From the sequence record OL964748.1: a stretch of 37,088 nt of DNA, one strand, 5' to 3'. Shown here in pieces: positions 1-37,088 of this stretch. Source of the stretch: Escherichia phage T7. The translations under genes were made by a program, and so were the position numbers. The notes beneath the pieces are model-generated. The model did no database searches, was not told where the DNA came from, and was given only the letters and a program-made list of their open reading frames with translations. Numbering within the stretch: the stretch's first letter is position 1; the number at the start of each line of letters is the position of its first letter.

Positions 1-151
1 TCTCACAGTGTACGGACCTAAAGTTCCCCCATAGGGGTACCTAAAGCCCAGCCAATCACCTAAAGTCAATGACCTTGAGGGTTCCCTAAGGGTTGGGGAT
101 GACCCTTGGGTTTGTCTTTGGGTGTTACCTTGAGTGTCTCTCTGTGTCCCT
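1..151. repeat. Left terminal direct repeat of the T7 genome
   Basis: 1..151 is identical to 36938..37088 at the other end of the window; begins with the canonical T7 end TCTCACAGTGTACGG. Confidence 0.95.
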
Positions 152-160
152 ACCTGTTAC

Positions 161-360
161 AGTCTCCTAAAGTATCCTCCTAAAGTATCCTCCTAAAGTC
201 ACCTCCTAACGTCCATCCTAAAGCCAACACCTAAAGACCCATCAAGTCAACGCCTATCTTAAAGTTTAAACATAAAGACCAGACCTAAAGACCAGACCTA
301 AAGACACTACATAAAGACCAGACCTAAAGACGCCTTGTTGTTAGCCATAAAGTGATAACC
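161..360. repeat. Left-end short repeat array (CCTAAAG-containing 12-13 bp units)
   Basis: Repeated units ending in cctaaag/ctaaag visible directly (tatcctcctaaag x2, accagacctaaag x3, etc.); matches T7 left-end repeat region. Confidence 0.85.
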
Positions 361-364
361 TTTA

Positions 365-427
365 ATCATTGTCTTTATTAATACAATCATTGTCTTTATT
401 AATATAATCATTGTCTTTATTAATACA
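365..427. repeat. Perfect tandem triplication of a 21-bp AT-rich unit (atcattgtctttattaata[c/t]a) abutting phiOL
   Basis: Three head-to-tail copies at 365..385, 386..406, 407..427 (one c/t difference in copy 2); only copy 3 continues into the full promoter core. Confidence 0.9.
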
Positions 428-443
428 ACTCACTATAAGGAGA
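421..443 (+). promoter_or_regulatory. T7 RNA polymerase promoter phiOL
   Basis: taatacaactcactataaggaga, 17-mer core plus initiating region. Confidence 0.85.
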
Positions 444-494: not shown

Positions 495-531
495 TTGACT
501 TAAAGTCTAACCTATAGGATACTTACAGCCA
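495..531 (+). promoter_or_regulatory. E. coli sigma70 early promoter A1
   Basis: -35 TTGACT (495..500), 17-bp spacer, -10 GATACT (518..523), start near 531 followed by atcgagagggacacggcgaa. Confidence 0.85.
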
Positions 532-642
532 TCGAGAGGGACACGGCGAATAGCCATCCCAATCGACACCGGGGTCAACCGGGCGCACAGTGCCTTCTAG
601 GTGACTTAAGCGCACCACGGCACATAAGGTGAAACAAAACGG

Positions 643-679
643 TTGACAACATGAAGTAAACACGGTACGATGTACCACA
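643..679 (+). promoter_or_regulatory. E. coli sigma70 early promoter A3
   Basis: -35 TTGACA (643..648), 17-bp spacer, -10 TACGAT (666..671); sequence matches T7 A3. Confidence 0.8.
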
Positions 680-853: not shown

Positions 854-1549
854 ATGGCTATGTCTAACATGACTTACAACAACGTTTTCGACCACGCTTA
901 CGAAATGCTGAAAGAAAACATCCGTTATGATGACATCCGTGACACTGATGACCTGCACGATGCTATTCACATGGCTGCCGATAATGCAGTTCCGCACTAC
1001 TACGCTGACATCTTTAGCGTAATGGCAAGTGAGGGCATTGACCTTGAGTTCGAAGACTCTGATCTGATGCCTGACACCAAGGACGTAATCCGCATCCTGC
1101 AAGCGCGTATCTATGAGCAATTAACGATTGACCTCTGGGAAGACGCAGAAGACTTGCTCAATGAATACTTGGAGGAAGTCGAGGAAGTCGCACGACAGAA
1201 AGAAATTGACCGCGCTAAGGCCCGTAAAGAACGTCACGAGGGGCGCTTAGAGGCACGCAGATTCAAACGTCGCAACCGCAAGGCACGTAAAGCACACAAA
1301 GCTAAGCGCGAAAGAATGCTTGCTGCGTGGCGATGGGCTGAACGTCAAGAACGGCGTAACCATGAGGTAGCTGTAGATGTACTAGGAAGAACCAATAACG
1401 CTATGCTCCGGGTCAACATGTCCTCTGGGGACTTTAAGGCGCTTGAGGAACGAATCGCGCTGCACTGGCGTAATGCTGACCGGATGGCTATCGCTAATGG
1501 TCTTACGCTCAACATTGATAAGCAACTTGACGCAATGTTAATGGGCTGA
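854..1549 (+). CDS. ocr: In-frame chimeric ORF: Ocr (gp0.3, anti-restriction DNA mimic) residues 1-111 fused to the C-terminal ~120 residues of gp0.7 (host-transcription shutoff region; kinase domain absent)
   Basis: 231-aa ORF; N-terminus [19 protein letters not shown]...[10 protein letters not shown] is Ocr; after E111 the sequence becomes basic ([18 protein letters not shown]...) and ends immediately upstream of the gene 1 leader, where gene 0.7 ends in T7. Confidence 0.85.
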
Positions 1550-1619: not shown

Positions 1620-4271
1620 ATGAACACGATTAACATCGCTAAGAACGACTTCTCTGACATCGAACTGGCTGCTATCCCGTTCAACACTCTGGCTGACCAT
1701 TACGGTGAGCGTTTAGCTCGCGAACAGTTGGCCCTTGAGCATGAGTCTTACGAGATGGGTGAAGCACGCTTCCGCAAGATGTTTGAGCGTCAACTTAAAG
1801 CTGGTGAGGTTGCGGATAACGCTGCCGCCAAGCCTCTCATCACTACCCTACTCCCTAAGATGATTGCACGCATCAACGACTGGTTTGAGGAAGTGAAAGC
1901 TAAGCGCGGCAAGCGCCAGACAGCCTTCCAGTTCCTGCAAGAAATCAAGCCGGAAGCCGTAGCGTACATCACCATTAAGACCACTCTGGCTTGCCTAACC
2001 AGTGCTGACAATACAACCGTTCAGGCTGTAGCAAGCGCAATCGGTCGGGCCATTGAGGACGAGGCTCGCTTCGGTCGTATCCGTGACCTTGAAGCTAAGC
2101 ACTTCAAGAAAAACGTTGAGGAACAACTCAACAAGCGCGTAGGGCACGTCTACAAGAAAGCATTTATGCGAGTTGTCGAGGCTGACATGCTCTCTAAGGG
2201 TCTACTCGGTGGCGAGGCGTGGTCTTCGTGGCATAAGGAAGACTCTATTCATGTAGGAGTACGCTGCATCGAGATGCTCATTGAGTCAACCGGAATGGTT
2301 AGCTTACACCGCCAAAATGCTGGCGTAGTAGGTCAAGACTCTGAGACTATCGAACTCGCACCTGAATACGCTGAGGCTATCGCAACCCGTGCAGGTGCGC
2401 TGGCTGGCATCTCTCCGATGTTCCAACCTTGCGTAGTTCCTCCTAAGCCGTGGACTGGCATTACTGGTGGTGGCTATTGGGCTAACGGTCGTCGTCCTCT
2501 GGCGCTGGTGCGTACTCACAGTAAGAAAGCACTGATGCGCTACGAAGACGTTTACATGCCTGAGGTGTACAAAGCGATTAACATTGCGCAAAACACCGCA
2601 TGGAAAATCAACAAGAAAGTCCTAGCGGTCGCCAACGTAATCACCAAGTGGAAGCATTGTCCGGTCGAGGACATCCCTGCGATTGAGCGTGAAGAACTCC
2701 CGATGAAACCGGAAGACATCGACATGAATCCTGAGGCTCTCACCGCGTGGAAACGTGCTGCCGCTGCTGTGTACCGCAAGGACAAGGCTCGCAAGTCTCG
2801 CCGTATCAGCCTTGAGTTCATGCTTGAGCAAGCCAATAAGTTTGCTAACCATAAGGCCATCTGGTTCCCTTACAACATGGACTGGCGCGGTCGTGTTTAC
2901 GCTGTGTCAATGTTCAACCCGCAAGGTAACGATATGACCAAAGGACTGCTTACGCTGGCGAAAGGTAAACCAATCGGTAAGGAAGGTTACTACTGGCTGA
3001 AAATCCACGGTGCAAACTGTGCGGGTGTCGATAAGGTTCCGTTCCCTGAGCGCATCAAGTTCATTGAGGAAAACCACGAGAACATCATGGCTTGCGCTAA
3101 GTCTCCACTGGAGAACACTTGGTGGGCTGAGCAAGATTCTCCGTTCTGCTTCCTTGCGTTCTGCTTTGAGTACGCTGGGGTACAGCACCACGGCCTGAGC
3201 TATAACTGCTCCCTTCCGCTGGCGTTTGACGGGTCTTGCTCTGGCATCCAGCACTTCTCCGCGATGCTCCGAGATGAGGTAGGTGGTCGCGCGGTTAACT
3301 TGCTTCCTAGTGAAACCGTTCAGGACATCTACGGGATTGTTGCTAAGAAAGTCAACGAGATTCTACAAGCAGACGCAATCAATGGGACCGATAACGAAGT
3401 AGTTACCGTGACCGATGAGAACACTGGTGAAATCTCTGAGAAAGTCAAGCTGGGCACTAAGGCACTGGCTGGTCAATGGCTGGCTTACGGTGTTACTCGC
3501 AGTGTGACTAAGCGTTCAGTCATGACGCTGGCTTACGGGTCCAAAGAGTTCGGCTTCCGTCAACAAGTGCTGGAAGATACCATTCAGCCAGCTATTGATT
3601 CCGGCAAGGGTCTGATGTTCACTCAGCCGAATCAGGCTGCTGGATACATGGCTAAGCTGATTTGGGAATCTGTGAGCGTGACGGTGGTAGCTGCGGTTGA
3701 AGCAATGAACTGGCTTAAGTCTGCTGCTAAGCTGCTGGCTGCTGAGGTCAAAGATAAGAAGACTGGAGAGATTCTTCGCAAGCGTTGCGCTGTGCATTGG
3801 GTAACTCCTGATGGTTTCCCTGTGTGGCAGGAATACAAGAAGCCTATTCAGACGCGCTTGAACCTGATGTTCCTCGGTCAGTTCCGCTTACAGCCTACCA
3901 TTAACACCAACAAAGATAGCGAGATTGATGCACACAAACAGGAGTCTGGTATCGCTCCTAACTTTGTACACAGCCAAGACGGTAGCCACCTTCGTAAGAC
4001 TGTAGTGTGGGCACACGAGAAGTACGGAATCGAATCTTTTGCACTGATTCACGACTCCTTCGGTACCATTCCGGCTGACGCTGCGAACCTGTTCAAAGCA
4101 GTGCGCGAAACTATGGTTGACACATATGAGTCTTGTGATGTACTGGCTGATTTCTACGACCAGTTCGCTGACCAGTTGCACGAGTCTCAATTGGACAAAA
4201 TGCCAGCACTTCCGGCTAAAGGTAACTTGAACCTCCGTGACATCTTAGAGTCGGACTTCGCGTTCGCGTAA
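1620..4271 (+). CDS. 1: T7 RNA polymerase (gene 1)
   Basis: 883-aa ORF starting MNTINIAKNDFSDIELAAIPFNTLADHYGERLAREQLALEHESYEMGEARFRKMFERQLKAGEVADNAAAKPLITTLLPKMIARINDWFEEVKAKRGKR..., ending ...LRDILESDFAFA. Confidence 0.98.
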   Translation: MNTINIAKNDFSDIELAAIPFNTLADHYGERLAREQLALEHESYEMGEARFRKMFERQLKAGEVADNAAAKPLITTLLPKMIARINDWFEEVKAKRGKRQTAFQFLQEIKPEAVAYITIKTTLACLTSADNTTVQAVASAIGRAIEDEARFGRIRDLEAKHFKKNVEEQLNKRVGHVYKKAFMRVVEADMLSKGLLGGEAWSSWHKEDSIHVGVRCIEMLIESTGMVSLHRQNAGVVGQDSETIELAPEYAEAIATRAGALAGISPMFQPCVVPPKPWTGITGGGYWANGRRPLALVRTHSKKALMRYEDVYMPEVYKAINIAQNTAWKINKKVLAVANVITKWKHCPVEDIPAIEREELPMKPEDIDMNPEALTAWKRAAAAVYRKDKARKSRRISLEFMLEQANKFANHKAIWFPYNMDWRGRVYAVSMFNPQGNDMTKGLLTLAKGKPIGKEGYYWLKIHGANCAGVDKVPFPERIKFIEENHENIMACAKSPLENTWWAEQDSPFCFLAFCFEYAGVQHHGLSYNCSLPLAFDGSCSGIQHFSAMLRDEVGGRAVNLLPSETVQDIYGIVAKKVNEILQADAINGTDNEVVTVTDENTGEISEKVKLGTKALAGQWLAYGVTRSVTKRSVMTLAYGSKEFGFRQQVLEDTIQPAIDSGKGLMFTQPNQAAGYMAKLIWESVSVTVVAAVEAMNWLKSAAKLLAAEVKDKKTGEILRKRCAVHWVTPDGFPVWQEYKKPIQTRLNLMFLGQFRLQPTINTNKDSEIDAHKQESGIAPNFVHSQDGSHLRKTVVWAHEKYGIESFALIHDSFGTIPADAANLFKAVRETMVDTYESCDVLADFYDQFADQLHESQLDKMPALPAKGNLNLRDILESDFAFA

Positions 4272-4279
4272 CGCCAAAT

Positions 4280-4302
4280 CAATACGACTCACTATAGGAG
4301 AA
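4280..4302 (+). promoter_or_regulatory. Single hybrid T7 promoter phi1.1A/phi1.1B (upstream flank of 1.1A, downstream of 1.1B)
   Basis: caatacgactcactataggagaacc lies 8 bp after the gene 1 stop; gene 1 stop to gene 1.1 start is 109 bp instead of 184 bp. Confidence 0.8.
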
Positions 4303-7275: not shown

Positions 7276-7974
7276 ATGGCTAAGAAGATTTTCACCTCTG
7301 CGCTGGGTACCGCTGAACCTTACGCTTACATCGCCAAGCCGGACTACGGCAACGAAGAGCGTGGCTTTGGGAACCCTCGTGGTGTCTATAAAGTTGACCT
7401 GACTATTCCCAACAAAGACCCGCGCTGCCAGCGTATGGTCGATGAAATCGTGAAGTGTCACGAAGAGGCTTATGCTGCTGCCGTTGAGGAATACGAAGCT
7501 AATCCACCTGCTGTAGCTCGTGGTAAGAAACCGCTGAAACCGTATGAGGGTGACATGCCGTTCTTCGATAACGGTGACGGTACGACTACCTTTAAGTTCA
7601 AATGCTACGCGTCTTTCCAAGACAAGAAGACCAAAGAGACCAAGCACATCAATCTTGTTGTGGTTGACTCAAAAGGTAAGAAGATGGAAGACGTTCCGAT
7701 TATCGGTGGTGGCTCTAAGCTGAAAGTTAAATATTCTCTGGTTCCATACAAGTGGAACACTGCTGTAGGTGCGAGCGTTAAGCTGCAACTGGAATCCGTG
7801 ATGCTGGTCGAACTGGCTACCTTTGGTGGCGGTGAAGACGATTGGGCTGACGAAGTTGAAGAGAACGGCTATGTTGCCTCTGGTTCTGCCAAAGCGAGCA
7901 AACCACGCGACGAAGAAAGCTGGGACGAAGACGACGAAGAGTCCGAGGAAGCAGACGAAGACGGAGACTTCTAA
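7276..7974 (+). CDS. 2.5: Single-stranded DNA-binding protein (gene 2.5)
   Basis: 232-aa ORF with acidic C-terminal tail ...DEDDEESEEADEDGDF. Confidence 0.95.
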   Translation: MAKKIFTSALGTAEPYAYIAKPDYGNEERGFGNPRGVYKVDLTIPNKDPRCQRMVDEIVKCHEEAYAAAVEEYEANPPAVARGKKPLKPYEGDMPFFDNGDGTTTFKFKCYASFQDKKTKETKHINLVVVDSKGKKMEDVPIIGGGSKLKVKYSLVPYKWNTAVGASVKLQLESVMLVELATFGGGEDDWADEVEENGYVASGSAKASKPRDEESWDEDDEESEEADEDGDF

Positions 7975-8394
7975 GTGGAACTGCGGGAGAAAATCCTTGA
8001 GCGAATCAAGGTGACTTCCTCTGGGTGTTGGGAGTGGCAGGGCGCTACGAACAATAAAGGGTACGGGCAGGTGTGGTGCAGCAATACCGGAAAGGTTGTC
8101 TACTGTCATCGCGTAATGTCTAATGCTCCGAAAGGTTCTACCGTCCTGCACTCCTGTGATAATCCATTATGTTGTAACCCTGAACACCTATCCATAGGAA
8201 CTCCAAAAGAGAACTCCACTGACATGGTAAATAAGGGTCGCTCACACAAGGGGTATAAACTTTCAGACGAAGACGTAATGGCAATCATGGAGTCCAGCGA
8301 GTCCAATGTATCCTTAGCTCGCACCTATGGTGTCTCCCAACAGACTATTTGTGATATACGCAAAGTGAGGCGACATGGCAGGTTACGGCGCTAA
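7975..8394 (+). CDS. 2.8: gene 2.8 protein, HNH-type endonuclease-like (GTG start)
   Basis: 139-aa ORF with HNH-like motif (CHRVMSNAP...HSCDNPLCCNPEHL); GTG start immediately after the 2.5 stop. Confidence 0.8.
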   Translation: MELREKILERIKVTSSGCWEWQGATNNKGYGQVWCSNTGKVVYCHRVMSNAPKGSTVLHSCDNPLCCNPEHLSIGTPKENSTDMVNKGRSHKGYKLSDEDVMAIMESSESNVSLARTYGVSQQTICDIRKVRRHGRLRR

Positions 8395-9280: not shown

Positions 9281-9303
9281 TAATTGAACTCACTAAAGGG
9301 AGA
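9281..9303 (+). promoter_or_regulatory. T7 promoter phi3.8
   Basis: aattaattgaactcactaaagggaga. Confidence 0.8.
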
Positions 9304-11164: not shown

Positions 11165-11187
11165 TAATACGACTCACTAAAGGCCAC
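11165..11187 (+). promoter_or_regulatory. T7 promoter phi4.3
   Basis: taatacgactcactaaaggcc. Confidence 0.8.
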
Positions 11188-11305
11188 ACAGTCACGCGCT
11201 CTGGCGATTCGCTCCAACGAACTGGCTGACAGTGCATCCACTAAAGTTACCGAGGCTGCCCGTGTGGCAAACCAAGCTCAACAGCTTTCCAAATTCTTTG
11301 AGTAA
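11183..11305 (+). pseudogene. 4.3: 3' remnant of gene 4.3; ribosome-binding site, start codon and 5' coding region missing (100-bp deletion)
   Basis: Gene 4 stop to gene 4.5 start is 100 bp shorter than expected; remaining sequence runs from the promoter straight into ...KFFE-stop (TAA 11303..11305). Confidence 0.6.
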
Positions 11306-14123: not shown

Positions 14124-14480
14124 ATGAACGAAAGACACTTAACAGGTGCTGCTTCTGAAATGCTAGTAGCCTACAAATTTACCAAAGCTGGGTACACTGT
14201 CTATTACCCTATGCTGACTCAGAGTAAAGAGGACTTGGTTGTATGTAAGGATGGTAAATTTAGTAAGGTTCAGGTTAAAACAGCCACAACGGTTCAAACC
14301 AACACAGGAGATGCCAAGCAGGTTAGGCTAGGTGGATGCGGTAGGTCCGAATATAAGGATGGAGACTTTGACATTCTTGCGGTTGTGGTTGACGAAGATG
14401 TGCTTATTTTCACATGGGACGAAGTAAAAGGTAAGACATCCATGTGTGTCGGCAAGAGAAACAAAGGCATAAAACTATAG
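14124..14480 (+). CDS. 5.3: gene 5.3 protein
   Basis: 118-aa ORF at the canonical position after gene 5. Confidence 0.85.
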   Translation: MNERHLTGAASEMLVAYKFTKAGYTVYYPMLTQSKEDLVVCKDGKFSKVQVKTATTVQTNTGDAKQVRLGGCGRSEYKDGDFDILAVVVDEDVLIFTWDEVKGKTSMCVGKRNKGIKL

Positions 14481-19209: not shown

Positions 19210-20133
19210 ATGGCTGAATCTAATGCAGACGTATATGCATCTTTTGGCGTGAACTCCGCTGTGATGTCTGGTGGTTCCGTTGAGGAACATGAGCAGAACA
19301 TGCTGGCTCTTGATGTTGCTGCCCGTGATGGCGATGATGCAATCGAGTTAGCGTCAGACGAAGTGGAAACAGAACGTGACCTGTATGACAACTCTGACCC
19401 GTTCGGTCAAGAGGATGACGAAGGCCGCATTCAGGTTCGTATCGGTGATGGCTCTGAGCCGACCGATGTGGACACTGGAGAAGAAGGCGTTGAGGGCACC
19501 GAAGGTTCCGAAGAGTTTACCCCACTGGGCGAGACTCCAGAAGAACTGGTAGCTGCCTCTGAGCAACTTGGTGAGCACGAAGAGGGCTTCCAAGAGATGA
19601 TTAACATTGCTGCTGAGCGTGGCATGAGTGTCGAGACCATTGAGGCTATCCAGCGTGAGTACGAGGAGAACGAAGAGTTGTCCGCCGAGTCCTACGCTAA
19701 GCTGGCTGAAATTGGCTACACGAAGGCTTTCATTGACTCGTATATCCGTGGTCAAGAAGCTCTGGTGGAGCAGTACGTAAACAGTGTCATTGAGTACGCT
19801 GGTGGTCGTGAACGTTTTGATGCACTGTATAACCACCTTGAGACGCACAACCCTGAGGCTGCACAGTCGCTGGATAATGCGTTGACCAATCGTGACTTAG
19901 CGACCGTTAAGGCTATCATCAACTTGGCTGGTGAGTCTCGCGCTAAGGCGTTCGGTCGTAAGCCAACTCGTAGTGTGACTAATCGTGCTATTCCGGCTAA
20001 ACCTCAGGCTACCAAGCGTGAAGGCTTTGCGGACCGTAGCGAGATGATTAAAGCTATGAGTGACCCTCGGTATCGCACAGATGCCAACTATCGTCGTCAA
20101 GTCGAACAGAAAGTAATCGATTCGAACTTCTGA
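19210..20133 (+). CDS. 9: Capsid assembly (scaffolding) protein (gene 9)
   Basis: 307-aa acidic ORF MAESNADVYASFGVNSAVMSGGSVEEHEQNMLALD... Confidence 0.95.
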   Translation: MAESNADVYASFGVNSAVMSGGSVEEHEQNMLALDVAARDGDDAIELASDEVETERDLYDNSDPFGQEDDEGRIQVRIGDGSEPTDVDTGEEGVEGTEGSEEFTPLGETPEELVAASEQLGEHEEGFQEMINIAAERGMSVETIEAIQREYEENEELSAESYAKLAEIGYTKAFIDSYIRGQEALVEQYVNSVIEYAGGRERFDALYNHLETHNPEAAQSLDNALTNRDLATVKAIINLAGESRAKAFGRKPTRSVTNRAIPAKPQATKREGFADRSEMIKAMSDPRYRTDANYRRQVEQKVIDSNF

Positions 20134-20146
20134 TAGACTTCGAAAT

Positions 20147-20169
20147 TAATACGACTCACTATAGGGAGA
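20147..20169 (+). promoter_or_regulatory. T7 promoter phi10 with the gene 10 leader and strong RBS
   Basis: taatacgactcactatagggagaccacaacggtttccctctagaaataattttgtttaactttaagaaggagatatacat ATG. Confidence 0.95.
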
Positions 20170-20226
20170 CCACAACGGTTTCCCTCTAGAAATAATTTTG
20201 TTTAACTTTAAGAAGGAGATATACAT

Positions 20227-36937: not shown

Positions 36938-37088
36938 TCTCACAGTGTACGGACCTAAAGTTCCCCCATAGGGGTACCTAAAGCCCAGCCAATCACCTAA
37001 AGTCAATGACCTTGAGGGTTCCCTAAGGGTTGGGGATGACCCTTGGGTTTGTCTTTGGGTGTTACCTTGAGTGTCTCTCTGTGTCCCT
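36938..37088. repeat. Right terminal direct repeat
   Basis: Identical to 1..151. Confidence 0.95.

What the first reader, a model, noticed from the sequence alone, without database searches (positions are those of the whole stretch)
854..1549. In-frame chimera of anti-restriction protein Ocr and the C-terminal region of gp0.7
The ORF reads as Ocr through E111, losing only the last 6 acidic residues, then continues in frame as a basic region ending exactly where gene 0.7 ends. Genes 0.4, 0.5, 0.6 and the protein kinase domain of 0.7 are absent. The junction sits in a tandem gaggaagtc-gaggaagtc at about 1172..1189, consistent with recombination at a short GAGGAA repeat. The product could plausibly keep both Ocr DNA-mimic activity and the separable C-terminal host-shutoff function of gp0.7 in one polypeptide under the early promoters.
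Basis: partly seen in the sequence, partly recalled or inferred. Interest (0 to 1): 0.6.

Follow-up and report, generated by a model that had tools for sequence, protein, structure and literature searches.

The report
Known T7 Ocr–gp0.7 deletion fusion
The ORF is a real in-frame fusion of phage T7's anti-restriction protein Ocr to the tail end of its kinase gene, but it is the long-known "H1" laboratory deletion of T7, already sequenced and tested, so it is ordinary.

Summary
Window 854..1549 is a 231-aa ORF made of Ocr residues 1-111 followed by gp0.7 residues 240-359. It ends at the native gene 0.7 stop codon. Genes 0.4, 0.5, 0.6 and the kinase domain are absent from the whole window.

The window is a laboratory T7 mutant, closest to GenBank OL964749 "clone T7_1t2". 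Its exact 100-bp and whole-gene deletions match the published CRISPR genome-reduction design called CiPGr.

The junction is a 1480-bp deletion between two copies of a 13-bp direct repeat, AGGAAGTCGAGGA, at wild-type 1244-1256 and 2724-2736. This is Studier's H1 deletion, published as the "0.3-0.7 fusion". It arises spontaneously and repeatedly during passage in rich medium. Isaev et al. 2020 showed that the fusion phage still overcomes EcoKI but only partly overcomes BREX.

What is specific to this window is three missense changes in the ORF:
- Ocr G70D, at a glycine invariant in 16 homologues.
- gp0.7 W314R.
- gp0.7 F318S.

Whether this particular copy is still active is therefore open. Host shut-off by the fused C-terminal domain has not been tested in anything I found. 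Two Yersinia phages, YpP-Y and phiA1122, carry similar in-frame fusions.

Verdict: already known, low interest.

The parts
854..1549 (+). 0.3-0.7 fusion ORF, 231 aa plus stop
   Evidence: Pfam ocr E=1.7e-62 over residues 3-103. PHROG 2568 (ocr-like) over residues 1-128, and PHROG 2828 (kinase family) matching only profile positions 233-366 of 366.
854..1186 (+). Ocr-derived part, codons 1-111 (wild-type 925-1257); net charge -24
   Evidence: matches PDB 1s7z over residues 1-115.
1173..1185 (+). Single remaining copy of the 13-bp direct repeat AGGAAGTCGAGGA, which is the deletion junction
   Evidence: The two BLAST blocks overlap at window 1173-1185; repeat extent.
1187..1549 (+). gp0.7 C-terminal shut-off/DNA-binding domain, codons 240-359 plus native stop (wild-type 2738-3100); net charge +16
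   Evidence: Domain defined as residues 243-359 in PMC13645617.
1062..1062 (+). G->A (wild-type 1133), Ocr G70D
   Evidence: G70 is invariant in 16 Ocr homologues of 50-80% identity.
1409..1409 (+). T->C (wild-type 2960), gp0.7 W314R (fusion residue 186)
   Evidence: My reading of the 29-sequence alignment at this position is mostly W, with a few F and one C.
1422..1422 (+). T->C (wild-type 2973), gp0.7 F318S (fusion residue 190)
   Evidence: The position varies among homologues: F, L, P, Q, T.
495..523 (+). Early E. coli promoter A1 (TTGACT-17-GATACT), retained
   Evidence: block identical to wild-type 372-549; wild-type annotation.
643..671 (+). Early E. coli promoter A3 (TTGACA-17-TACGAT), retained
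574..582 (+). Junction of a second repeat-mediated deletion that removes promoter A2 (wild-type ~550-644), at the 9-bp repeat GTCAACCGG
   Evidence: Overlap of the BLAST blocks; sequences.
1620..4271 (+). Gene 1 (T7 RNA polymerase), now 1480 bp closer to the left genome end

Best explanation
This is the classical spontaneous early-region deletion of phage T7, known as Studier's H1 and published as the '0.3-0.7 fusion' (deleted bases given as 1257-2736 or 1256-2735). Here it sits in a laboratory T7 lineage that was also subjected to CRISPR/Cas9 genome reduction. Misalignment or annealing between two 13-bp direct repeats, one at the 3' end of gene 0.3 and one in the middle of gene 0.7, removed 1480 bp. 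The repeats lie in the same codon phase, so the result is one 231-aa ORF: Ocr 1-111 plus gp0.7 240-359. It is still transcribed from early promoters A1 and A3 and uses the gene 0.3 ribosome-binding site. Shown elsewhere for the same protein: it still neutralises the type I restriction enzyme EcoKI and is weakened against BREX. Shown elsewhere for phages with the deletion: it is repeatedly selected in rich medium, where gp0.7 is deleterious. Inferred: loss of the kinase, and earlier entry and expression of gene 1, give the growth advantage. Also inferred: the basic DNA-binding tail probably interferes in part with the acidic DNA-mimic head. The three substitutions in this copy are later events of unknown effect.
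For: The junction and repeat were mapped against NC_001604. The identical junction occurs in five T7 mutant records (MZ375235/236/238, OL964749/750) and, minus one base, in four PV22388x records. Isaev et al. 2020 describe exactly this deletion: the flanking repeat (reported there as 12 bp, AGGAAGTCGAGG), a 231-aa ORF, the name H1, spontaneous origin, and the EcoKI and BREX phenotypes (PMC7261183). Heineman & Brown 2012 list '1257-2736 0.3-0.7 fusion' in their lab-adapted T7 (PMC3470554). Cole et al. 2021 saw a deletion of this locus fix during pre-adaptation, in a register 9 bp away, and cite Cunningham 1997 (PMC8923235). gp0.7 is deleterious in rich medium (PMC2680503). The window's exact 100-bp deletions (wild-type 8163-8262, 14172-14271, 39565-39664), its exact removal of the gene 1.4 CDS and its near-complete removal of gene 7.7 match the CiPGr cassette-100 and cassette-gene design. 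That paper reports an undesigned loss of 'gp0.3-0.6' and found gp0.3 not removable on MG1655 (PMC9825161).
Against: Nothing contradicts the identification. Open points: I could not read the CiPGr accession table, so attributing the window to that study rests on the deletion pattern and on the clone names of the nearest records. Whether the deletion was already in the starting stock, arose spontaneously, or was favoured by Cas9 cuts inside 0.4-0.7 cannot be told from sequence. G70D at an invariant Ocr residue means the published phenotypes may not carry over to this copy.
Confidence: 0.93

Rival explanations
1. The deletion was made on purpose by a designed CRISPR repair template in the genome-reduction experiment, and is not a repeat-mediated event.
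For: The same genome carries designed deletions of exactly 100 bp and of whole genes, and the library targeted every gene (PMC9825161).
Against: The designed edits remove 100 bp or one gene using 50-bp arms. This one removes 1480 bp across five genes, ends inside a native 13-bp repeat, and is base-for-base the deletion seen in unrelated laboratories without CRISPR. The authors state that loss of the large fragment 'gp0.3-0.6' was not part of the design. Cas9 cutting may still have selected for it.
Confidence: 0.04
2. The fusion ORF in this window is a decaying relic. The chimera is made, but G70D and W314R have inactivated one or both halves, so it does nothing useful.
For: Three of three substitutions in the ORF are missense. 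The density is about four times the genome average (3 in 696 bp against 36 in ~36.6 kb; Poisson P=0.03). G70 is invariant in 16 Ocr homologues, and position 314 is aromatic in nearly all of 29 gp0.7 homologues, never Arg. The substitutions accumulate stepwise across sibling clones: none in MZ375235, one in OL964750, three in OL964749 and here. A phage passaged on a single host strain becomes modified by that host and no longer needs Ocr (established knowledge of type I systems).
Against: The reading frame is intact with no stop codon or frameshift. By contrast, the PV22388x records do have a 1-nt frameshift at the junction. The CiPGr study never recovered gp0.3 knockouts on EcoKI+ MG1655. According to its abstract, PMC4872106 dissected Ocr's mimicry by altering its acidic residues; my recollection that Ocr proved highly tolerant of such changes is from memory, not read here.
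Confidence: 0.25
3. The chimera is a selected new function. Joining the DNA mimic to the basic DNA-binding domain is itself advantageous, for example because the acidic Ocr surface detoxifies the shut-off domain, or because the tail brings Ocr to DNA-bound enzymes.
For: Independent in-frame Ocr-gp0.7C fusions exist at three different junctions: T7 H1 (EEVEE|V), YpP-Y (LEEV|A) and phiA1122 (LEE|R). The two halves have opposite charge, -24 and +16. The isolated shut-off domain is toxic and binds DNA.
Against: The fusion is worse than free Ocr against BREX, and selection on BREX+ cells readily yields stop codons that cut off the gp0.7 part. Being in frame follows from the repeats encoding the same Glu-Glu-Val or Leu-Glu-Glu motif in the same phase. 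Other early-region deletions with different endpoints are also selected, for example a gene 0.3-gene 1 fusion (PMC6042481). That points to loss of DNA or of gp0.7, not to gain of a chimera.
Confidence: 0.08
4. Assembly artefact: reads collapsed across the repeat and there is no real deletion.
For: None beyond the presence of a repeat at the junction.
Against: A 13-bp repeat is far shorter than a sequencing read. The same junction is found in several independently assembled genomes and in Sanger-era literature. The genome length (37,088 bp) is accounted for by the sum of the mapped deletions.
Confidence: 0.01

Closest known systems
T7 deletion H1 of Studier, the '0.3-0.7 fusion' phage (Isaev et al. 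2020, NAR, PMC7261183; Cunningham et al. 1997; Heineman & Brown 2012)
   Same: Same endpoints (wild-type 1257-2736, ambiguous within the repeat), same flanking repeat, same 231-aa in-frame ORF, and same loss of 0.4, 0.5, 0.6 and the kinase domain.
   Different: This copy has three extra missense changes (Ocr G70D; gp0.7 W314R and F318S). It sits in a genome that also lacks promoter A2 and carries engineered deletions.
T7 Ocr (gp0.3), DNA-mimic inhibitor of type I restriction and BREX (PDB 1s7z; Pfam PF08684)
   Same: Residues 1-111 of 117 are present, with the full Pfam domain and strong acidity.
   Different: The last six residues are replaced by 120 basic residues from gp0.7, and the invariant Gly70 is Asp.
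T7 gp0.7 (T7K), protein kinase with a C-terminal shut-off/DNA-binding domain
   Same: Residues 240-359 are present, which covers the whole shut-off domain (243-359).
   Different: There is no kinase domain at all, so the GenBank label 'protein kinase' on sibling records is misleading. Two substitutions lie in the C-terminal part.
Ocr-gp0.7C fusions of Yersinia phages YpP-Y (228 aa) and phiA1122 (140 aa)
   Same: Both are in-frame fusions of Ocr to a C-terminal piece of gp0.7, created at GAGGAA-containing microhomologies, with loss of 0.4-0.6 and the kinase.
   Different: The junctions differ. YpP-Y uses the register 9 bp away (GAGGAAGTCG, LEEV|ARQ), which equals the 1489-bp variant reported for T7 by Cole et al. 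2021. phiA1122 joins at CTTGAGGAA and keeps only about the last 32 residues of gp0.7.

Membership tests
T7 H1 deletion / 0.3-0.7 fusion | Deletion of wild-type ~1257-2736 between the AGGAAGTCGAGG(A) direct repeats | tested here: met
   13-bp repeat at 1244-1256 and 2724-2736, 1480 bp missing.
T7 H1 deletion / 0.3-0.7 fusion | In-frame 231-aa ORF made of the Ocr N-terminus (110-111 aa) plus the gp0.7 C-terminus (120-121 aa) | tested here: met
T7 H1 deletion / 0.3-0.7 fusion | Complete loss of genes 0.4, 0.5 and 0.6 and of the kinase domain | tested here: met
   no tblastn hit and no shared 20-mer anywhere in the window.
T7 H1 deletion / 0.3-0.7 fusion | Phenotype: overcomes EcoKI, only partly overcomes BREX | not testable with these tools
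   Published for the unsubstituted fusion (PMC7261183). This copy has G70D.
Ocr DNA mimic (PF08684) | Full-length match to the family profile above the curated cut-off | tested here: met
   208.6 bits against a cut-off of 25, profile positions 1-101 of 101. PDB 1s7z, E=2e-67.
Ocr DNA mimic (PF08684) | Strongly acidic surface, the basis of the DNA mimicry | tested here: met
   30 Asp+Glu against 6 Lys+Arg in residues 1-111; pI 4.05.
Ocr DNA mimic (PF08684) | Conserved core motif [14 protein letters not shown] intact (a conserved feature, not a formal definition of the family) | tested here: inconclusive
   G70 is invariant in 16 homologues and is Asp here. The effect on fold is unknown.
T7 gp0.7 protein kinase (T7K) | Kinase domain (residues 1-242) | tested here: not met
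   only positions 233-366 of the PHROG 2828 profile are matched. It is not a kinase.
T7 gp0.7 protein kinase (T7K) | C-terminal shut-off/DNA-binding domain (residues 243-359) | tested here: met
   118 of 120 residues identical to gp0.7 240-359. Domain limits from PMC13645617.
T7 gp0.7 protein kinase (T7K) | Host transcription shut-off activity of the fused domain | not testable with these tools
   I found no published test of the fusion. Isaev et al. say only that it 'might be important'.

The most novel reading that the evidence does not exclude
The repeated, independent retention of an in-frame gp0.7 C-terminal piece on Ocr (T7 H1, the 9-bp-shifted T7/YpP-Y variant, and phiA1122) is selected and not incidental. 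On this reading, the acidic DNA mimic and the basic DNA-binding tail form a self-masking pair that detoxifies the shut-off domain or tunes Ocr's target range, and the G70D, W314R and F318S changes in this lineage are adaptive tuning of that pair.
Probability: 0.07. Interest if true: 0.35.

Novelty: already known. Interest (0 to 1): 0.08.

Why it matters
It matters mainly as a caution. Many laboratory "wild-type" T7 stocks and deposited T7 genomes carry this deletion. It changes their sensitivity to BREX and removes the broadly acting anti-defence kinase. Automatic annotation then labels the fusion ORF "protein kinase" although no kinase domain is left. Anyone using such genomes to study phage defence or gene essentiality should recognise it. 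For discovery purposes it adds nothing new beyond one more sequenced instance carrying three extra substitutions.

Tried and rejected
1. Cas9 escape. I asked whether the three substitutions in the ORF are Cas9 escape mutations. G1133A does destroy a TGG PAM, and T2960C and T2973C both fall inside one possible 20-nt protospacer next to a TGG. Genome-wide, however, the 36 substitutions are not enriched in GG/CC dinucleotides (9 of 36 against 19.6% expected, P=0.26) or in PAM-proximal positions (25 of 36 against 65%). The spacer list could not be read. The idea is left as speculation.

2. Accession numbers. Searching the literature for MZ375235, OL964749 and related numbers found nothing. The link to the CiPGr paper is therefore inferred from the deletion design and the clone names.

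3. Papers not held. I tried to read Bull et al. 2012 and Garcia et al. 2003 (the phiA1122 genome paper); neither is in the library.

4. Structure prediction. I considered predicting the fusion's structure to look for docking of the basic helix on Ocr. I did not run it. With only two natural fusion sequences there is no co-variation between the halves, and the tool reports no inter-domain error, so the result could not support or refute anything.

5. Search for the exact protein. The large protein search did not return the exact 231-aa T7 fusion, only the YpP-Y and phiA1122 versions. The nucleotide collections did contain it.

Full report
WHAT THE WINDOW IS

The 37,088-bp window is a complete genome of a laboratory mutant of phage T7.
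- Its first 2 kb are 100% identical to GenBank OL964749.1, "Mutant Escherichia phage T7 clone T7_1t2".
- The whole window differs from that record only by a few substitutions, a 58-bp deletion between the phi1.1A and phi1.1B promoters, and one 100-bp block.
- Against the T7 reference NC_001604 it shows 36 substitutions and about a dozen deletions.
- Three of those deletions are exactly 100 bp: wild-type 8163-8262, 14172-14271 and 39565-39664.
- One removes exactly the gene 1.4 coding sequence (7608-7763).
- One removes gene 7.7 from its start codon to 24 nt before gene 8.

This pattern matches the "cassette-100" and "cassette-gene" design of the CRISPR/Cas9 iterative phage genome reduction experiment (CiPGr) of Yuan et al. 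2022, done on E. coli MG1655 (PMC9825161). I could not read the accession table of that paper, so this provenance is an inference.

THE OBSERVATION

Window 854..1549 on the + strand is an ATG-initiated ORF of 231 codons.
- Residues 1-111 are T7 Ocr with one change, G70D.
- Residues 112-231 are gp0.7 residues 240-359 with two changes, W314R and F318S.
- The TGA stop is the native gene 0.7 stop.
- Pfam finds the complete ocr domain (E=1.7e-62).
- PHROGs finds the ocr-like family over residues 1-128, and only the last third (profile positions 233-366 of 366) of the T7 kinase family.
- gp0.4, gp0.5, gp0.6A and gp0.7 residues 1-239 have no tblastn match anywhere in the window. No 20-mer of wild-type 1257-2723 is present.

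THE JUNCTION

Wild-type T7 reads TTGGAGGAAGTCGAGGAGTAC at the end of gene 0.3 and TCAAGGAAGTCGAGGAAGTCGCAC in gene 0.7. The two share a perfect 13-bp direct repeat, AGGAAGTCGAGGA, at 1244-1256 and 2724-2736, and both copies are in the same codon phase. The window keeps one copy (1173-1185) and lacks the 1480 bp between them.

IT IS ALREADY KNOWN

Isaev et al. 2020 (PMC7261183) describe this exact lesion:
- a deletion of positions 1256-2735, flanked by what they report as 12-bp repeats AGGAAGTCGAGG;
- "deletion H1 of Studier";
- spontaneous origin during cultivation in rich medium;
- loss of genes 0.4-0.6, and an in-frame 231-aa "0.3-0.7 fusion".

Other papers report the same or a nearby event.
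- Heineman & Brown 2012 list "1257-2736, 0.3-0.7 fusion" in their lab-adapted T7 (PMC3470554).
- Cole et al. 2021 saw a deletion of this locus fix during pre-adaptation. They give a 1,489-bp length with GAGGAAGTCG homology, which is the register 9 bp away. They cite Cunningham et al. 1997 and others for earlier reports (PMC8923235).
- The CiPGr authors themselves report an undesigned loss of a large fragment "gp0.3-0.6".

In the phage collection, the identical junction occurs in MZ375235, MZ375236, MZ375238, OL964749 and OL964750. With one base fewer, which shifts the frame, it occurs in PV223880-PV223883.

HOW IT WORKS

Shown here:
- The ORF keeps the gene 0.3 start region and sits behind intact A1 (495-523) and A3 (643-671) promoters. 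Promoter A2 has been lost through a separate deletion between 9-bp repeats.
- The sequence from the stop codon to gene 1 is wild type.

Shown by others, for the same protein without this window's substitutions:
- The fusion phage lyses and plates normally on EcoKI+ cells, where a gene 0.3 deletion mutant drops about 1000-fold.
- It is about 100-fold restricted by BREX, against about 10-fold for wild type.
- Escape mutants on BREX+ cells carry stop codons at the start of the gp0.7 part. The tail therefore hinders the Ocr head against BREX.

Shown by others for the free C-terminal domain (PMC13645617):
- Residues 243-359 bind DNA.
- The domain is toxic.
- It can shut off host transcription without the kinase domain.

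Inferred:
- The Ocr part has net charge -24 and the tail +16, so partial self-masking of a DNA mimic by a DNA-binding tail is a reasonable explanation for the BREX defect.
- The selective advantage of the deletion probably comes from losing the kinase and from bringing gene 1 1480 bp closer to the entering genome end. This rests on established knowledge that T7 genome entry is coupled to transcription.

I found no test of shut-off by the fused protein.

WHAT IS SPECIFIC TO THIS COPY

Three substitutions fall in the 696-bp ORF, and all are missense. That is about four times the genome-wide density (Poisson P=0.03).
- G70 is invariant in 16 Ocr homologues of 50-80% identity.
- Position 314 of gp0.7 is aromatic in nearly all of 29 homologues and is never Arg.
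- Position 318 is variable.

The changes accumulate across sibling clones: none in MZ375235, W314R alone in OL964750, and all three in OL964749 and in this window. They might be Cas9 escape changes, because G1133A destroys a TGG PAM. A genome-wide test gave no enrichment, however. Whether this copy still works is open. I put about 25% on the ORF being functionally impaired.

RELATED NATURAL CASES

- Yersinia phage YpP-Y encodes a 228-aa Ocr-gp0.7C fusion with the junction LEEV|ARQ.
- phiA1122 encodes a 140-aa "protein 0.3" that is Ocr 1-108 joined at CTTGAGGAA to about the last 32 residues of gp0.7.

Repeat-mediated in-frame fusion at this locus is thus recurrent across the T7 group. The simplest reading is that acidic Glu-Glu-Val and Leu-Glu-Glu motifs give in-phase microhomologies. 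A selected chimera remains a low-probability alternative.

VERDICT

The feature is a well-documented laboratory deletion, so it is already known and of low interest.

Noticed in passing
window 364-428: A 21-bp unit (AATCATTGTCTTTATTAATAC) just upstream of, and overlapping, the 5' end of the phiOL T7 promoter is present in 3 tandem copies. Wild type and MZ375235 have 1 copy and the sibling clone OL964750 has 4, so the copy number is changing within this lineage. Its function is unknown.
   Followed up: partly
window 548-582 (wild-type ~550-644 missing): Early promoter A2 is deleted between 9-bp direct repeats GTCAACCGG. A1 and A3 remain.
   Followed up: partly
window 1-151 and 36938-37088: The terminal repeat is 151 bp instead of 160 bp. 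The same 1-bp loss (one G) and 8-bp loss (CCTTCGGT) occur at both ends, so the change is real and has been copied to both repeats.
   Followed up: partly
window 164-240: The array of 13-bp CCTAAAG-type repeats next to the left terminal repeat has gained one unit (CTCCTAAAGTATC) and lost another (around wild-type 231-243) relative to T7.
   Followed up: no
window 5981/5982, 6380/6381, 11912/11913, 17476/17477, 36824/36825: Scarless deletions of exactly 100 bp (wild-type 8163-8262, 14172-14271, 39565-39664), of exactly the gene 1.4 coding sequence (7608-7763) and of most of gene 7.7 (19848-20216). This is the signature of designed CRISPR repair templates (CiPGr, PMC9825161).
   Followed up: yes
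window 4281-4297, 9295-9303, 11181-11190: Further undesigned deletions at short repeats: 58 bp between the phi1.1A and phi1.1B promoters (17-bp overlap), 268 bp in gene 3.8 (9-bp overlap) and 90 bp in gene 4.3 (10-bp overlap).
   Followed up: no
L005 (PV223881.1) 1181-1340: Four 'recombinant T7-B-G' records carry the same junction minus one base (GAGG-AGTCG). This shifts the frame after the Ocr part, so the gp0.7 tail is not translated, and the ORF is left unannotated there.
   Followed up: partly
L004 (NC_047939.1 YpP-Y) 2245-2931; L009 (NC_004777.1 phiA1122) 601-1023: Yersinia pestis phages carry their own in-frame Ocr-gp0.7 C-terminal fusions (228 aa and 140 aa) at different microhomologies. 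One is annotated 'serine-threonine kinase' although it has no kinase domain.
   Followed up: partly
L001 (OL964749.1) 854-1549; L002 (MZ375235.1) 925-1620: GenBank labels the fusion ORF 'protein kinase'. Only the non-catalytic C-terminal domain of gp0.7 is present and the N-terminal half is Ocr, so the product name is misleading.
   Followed up: yes
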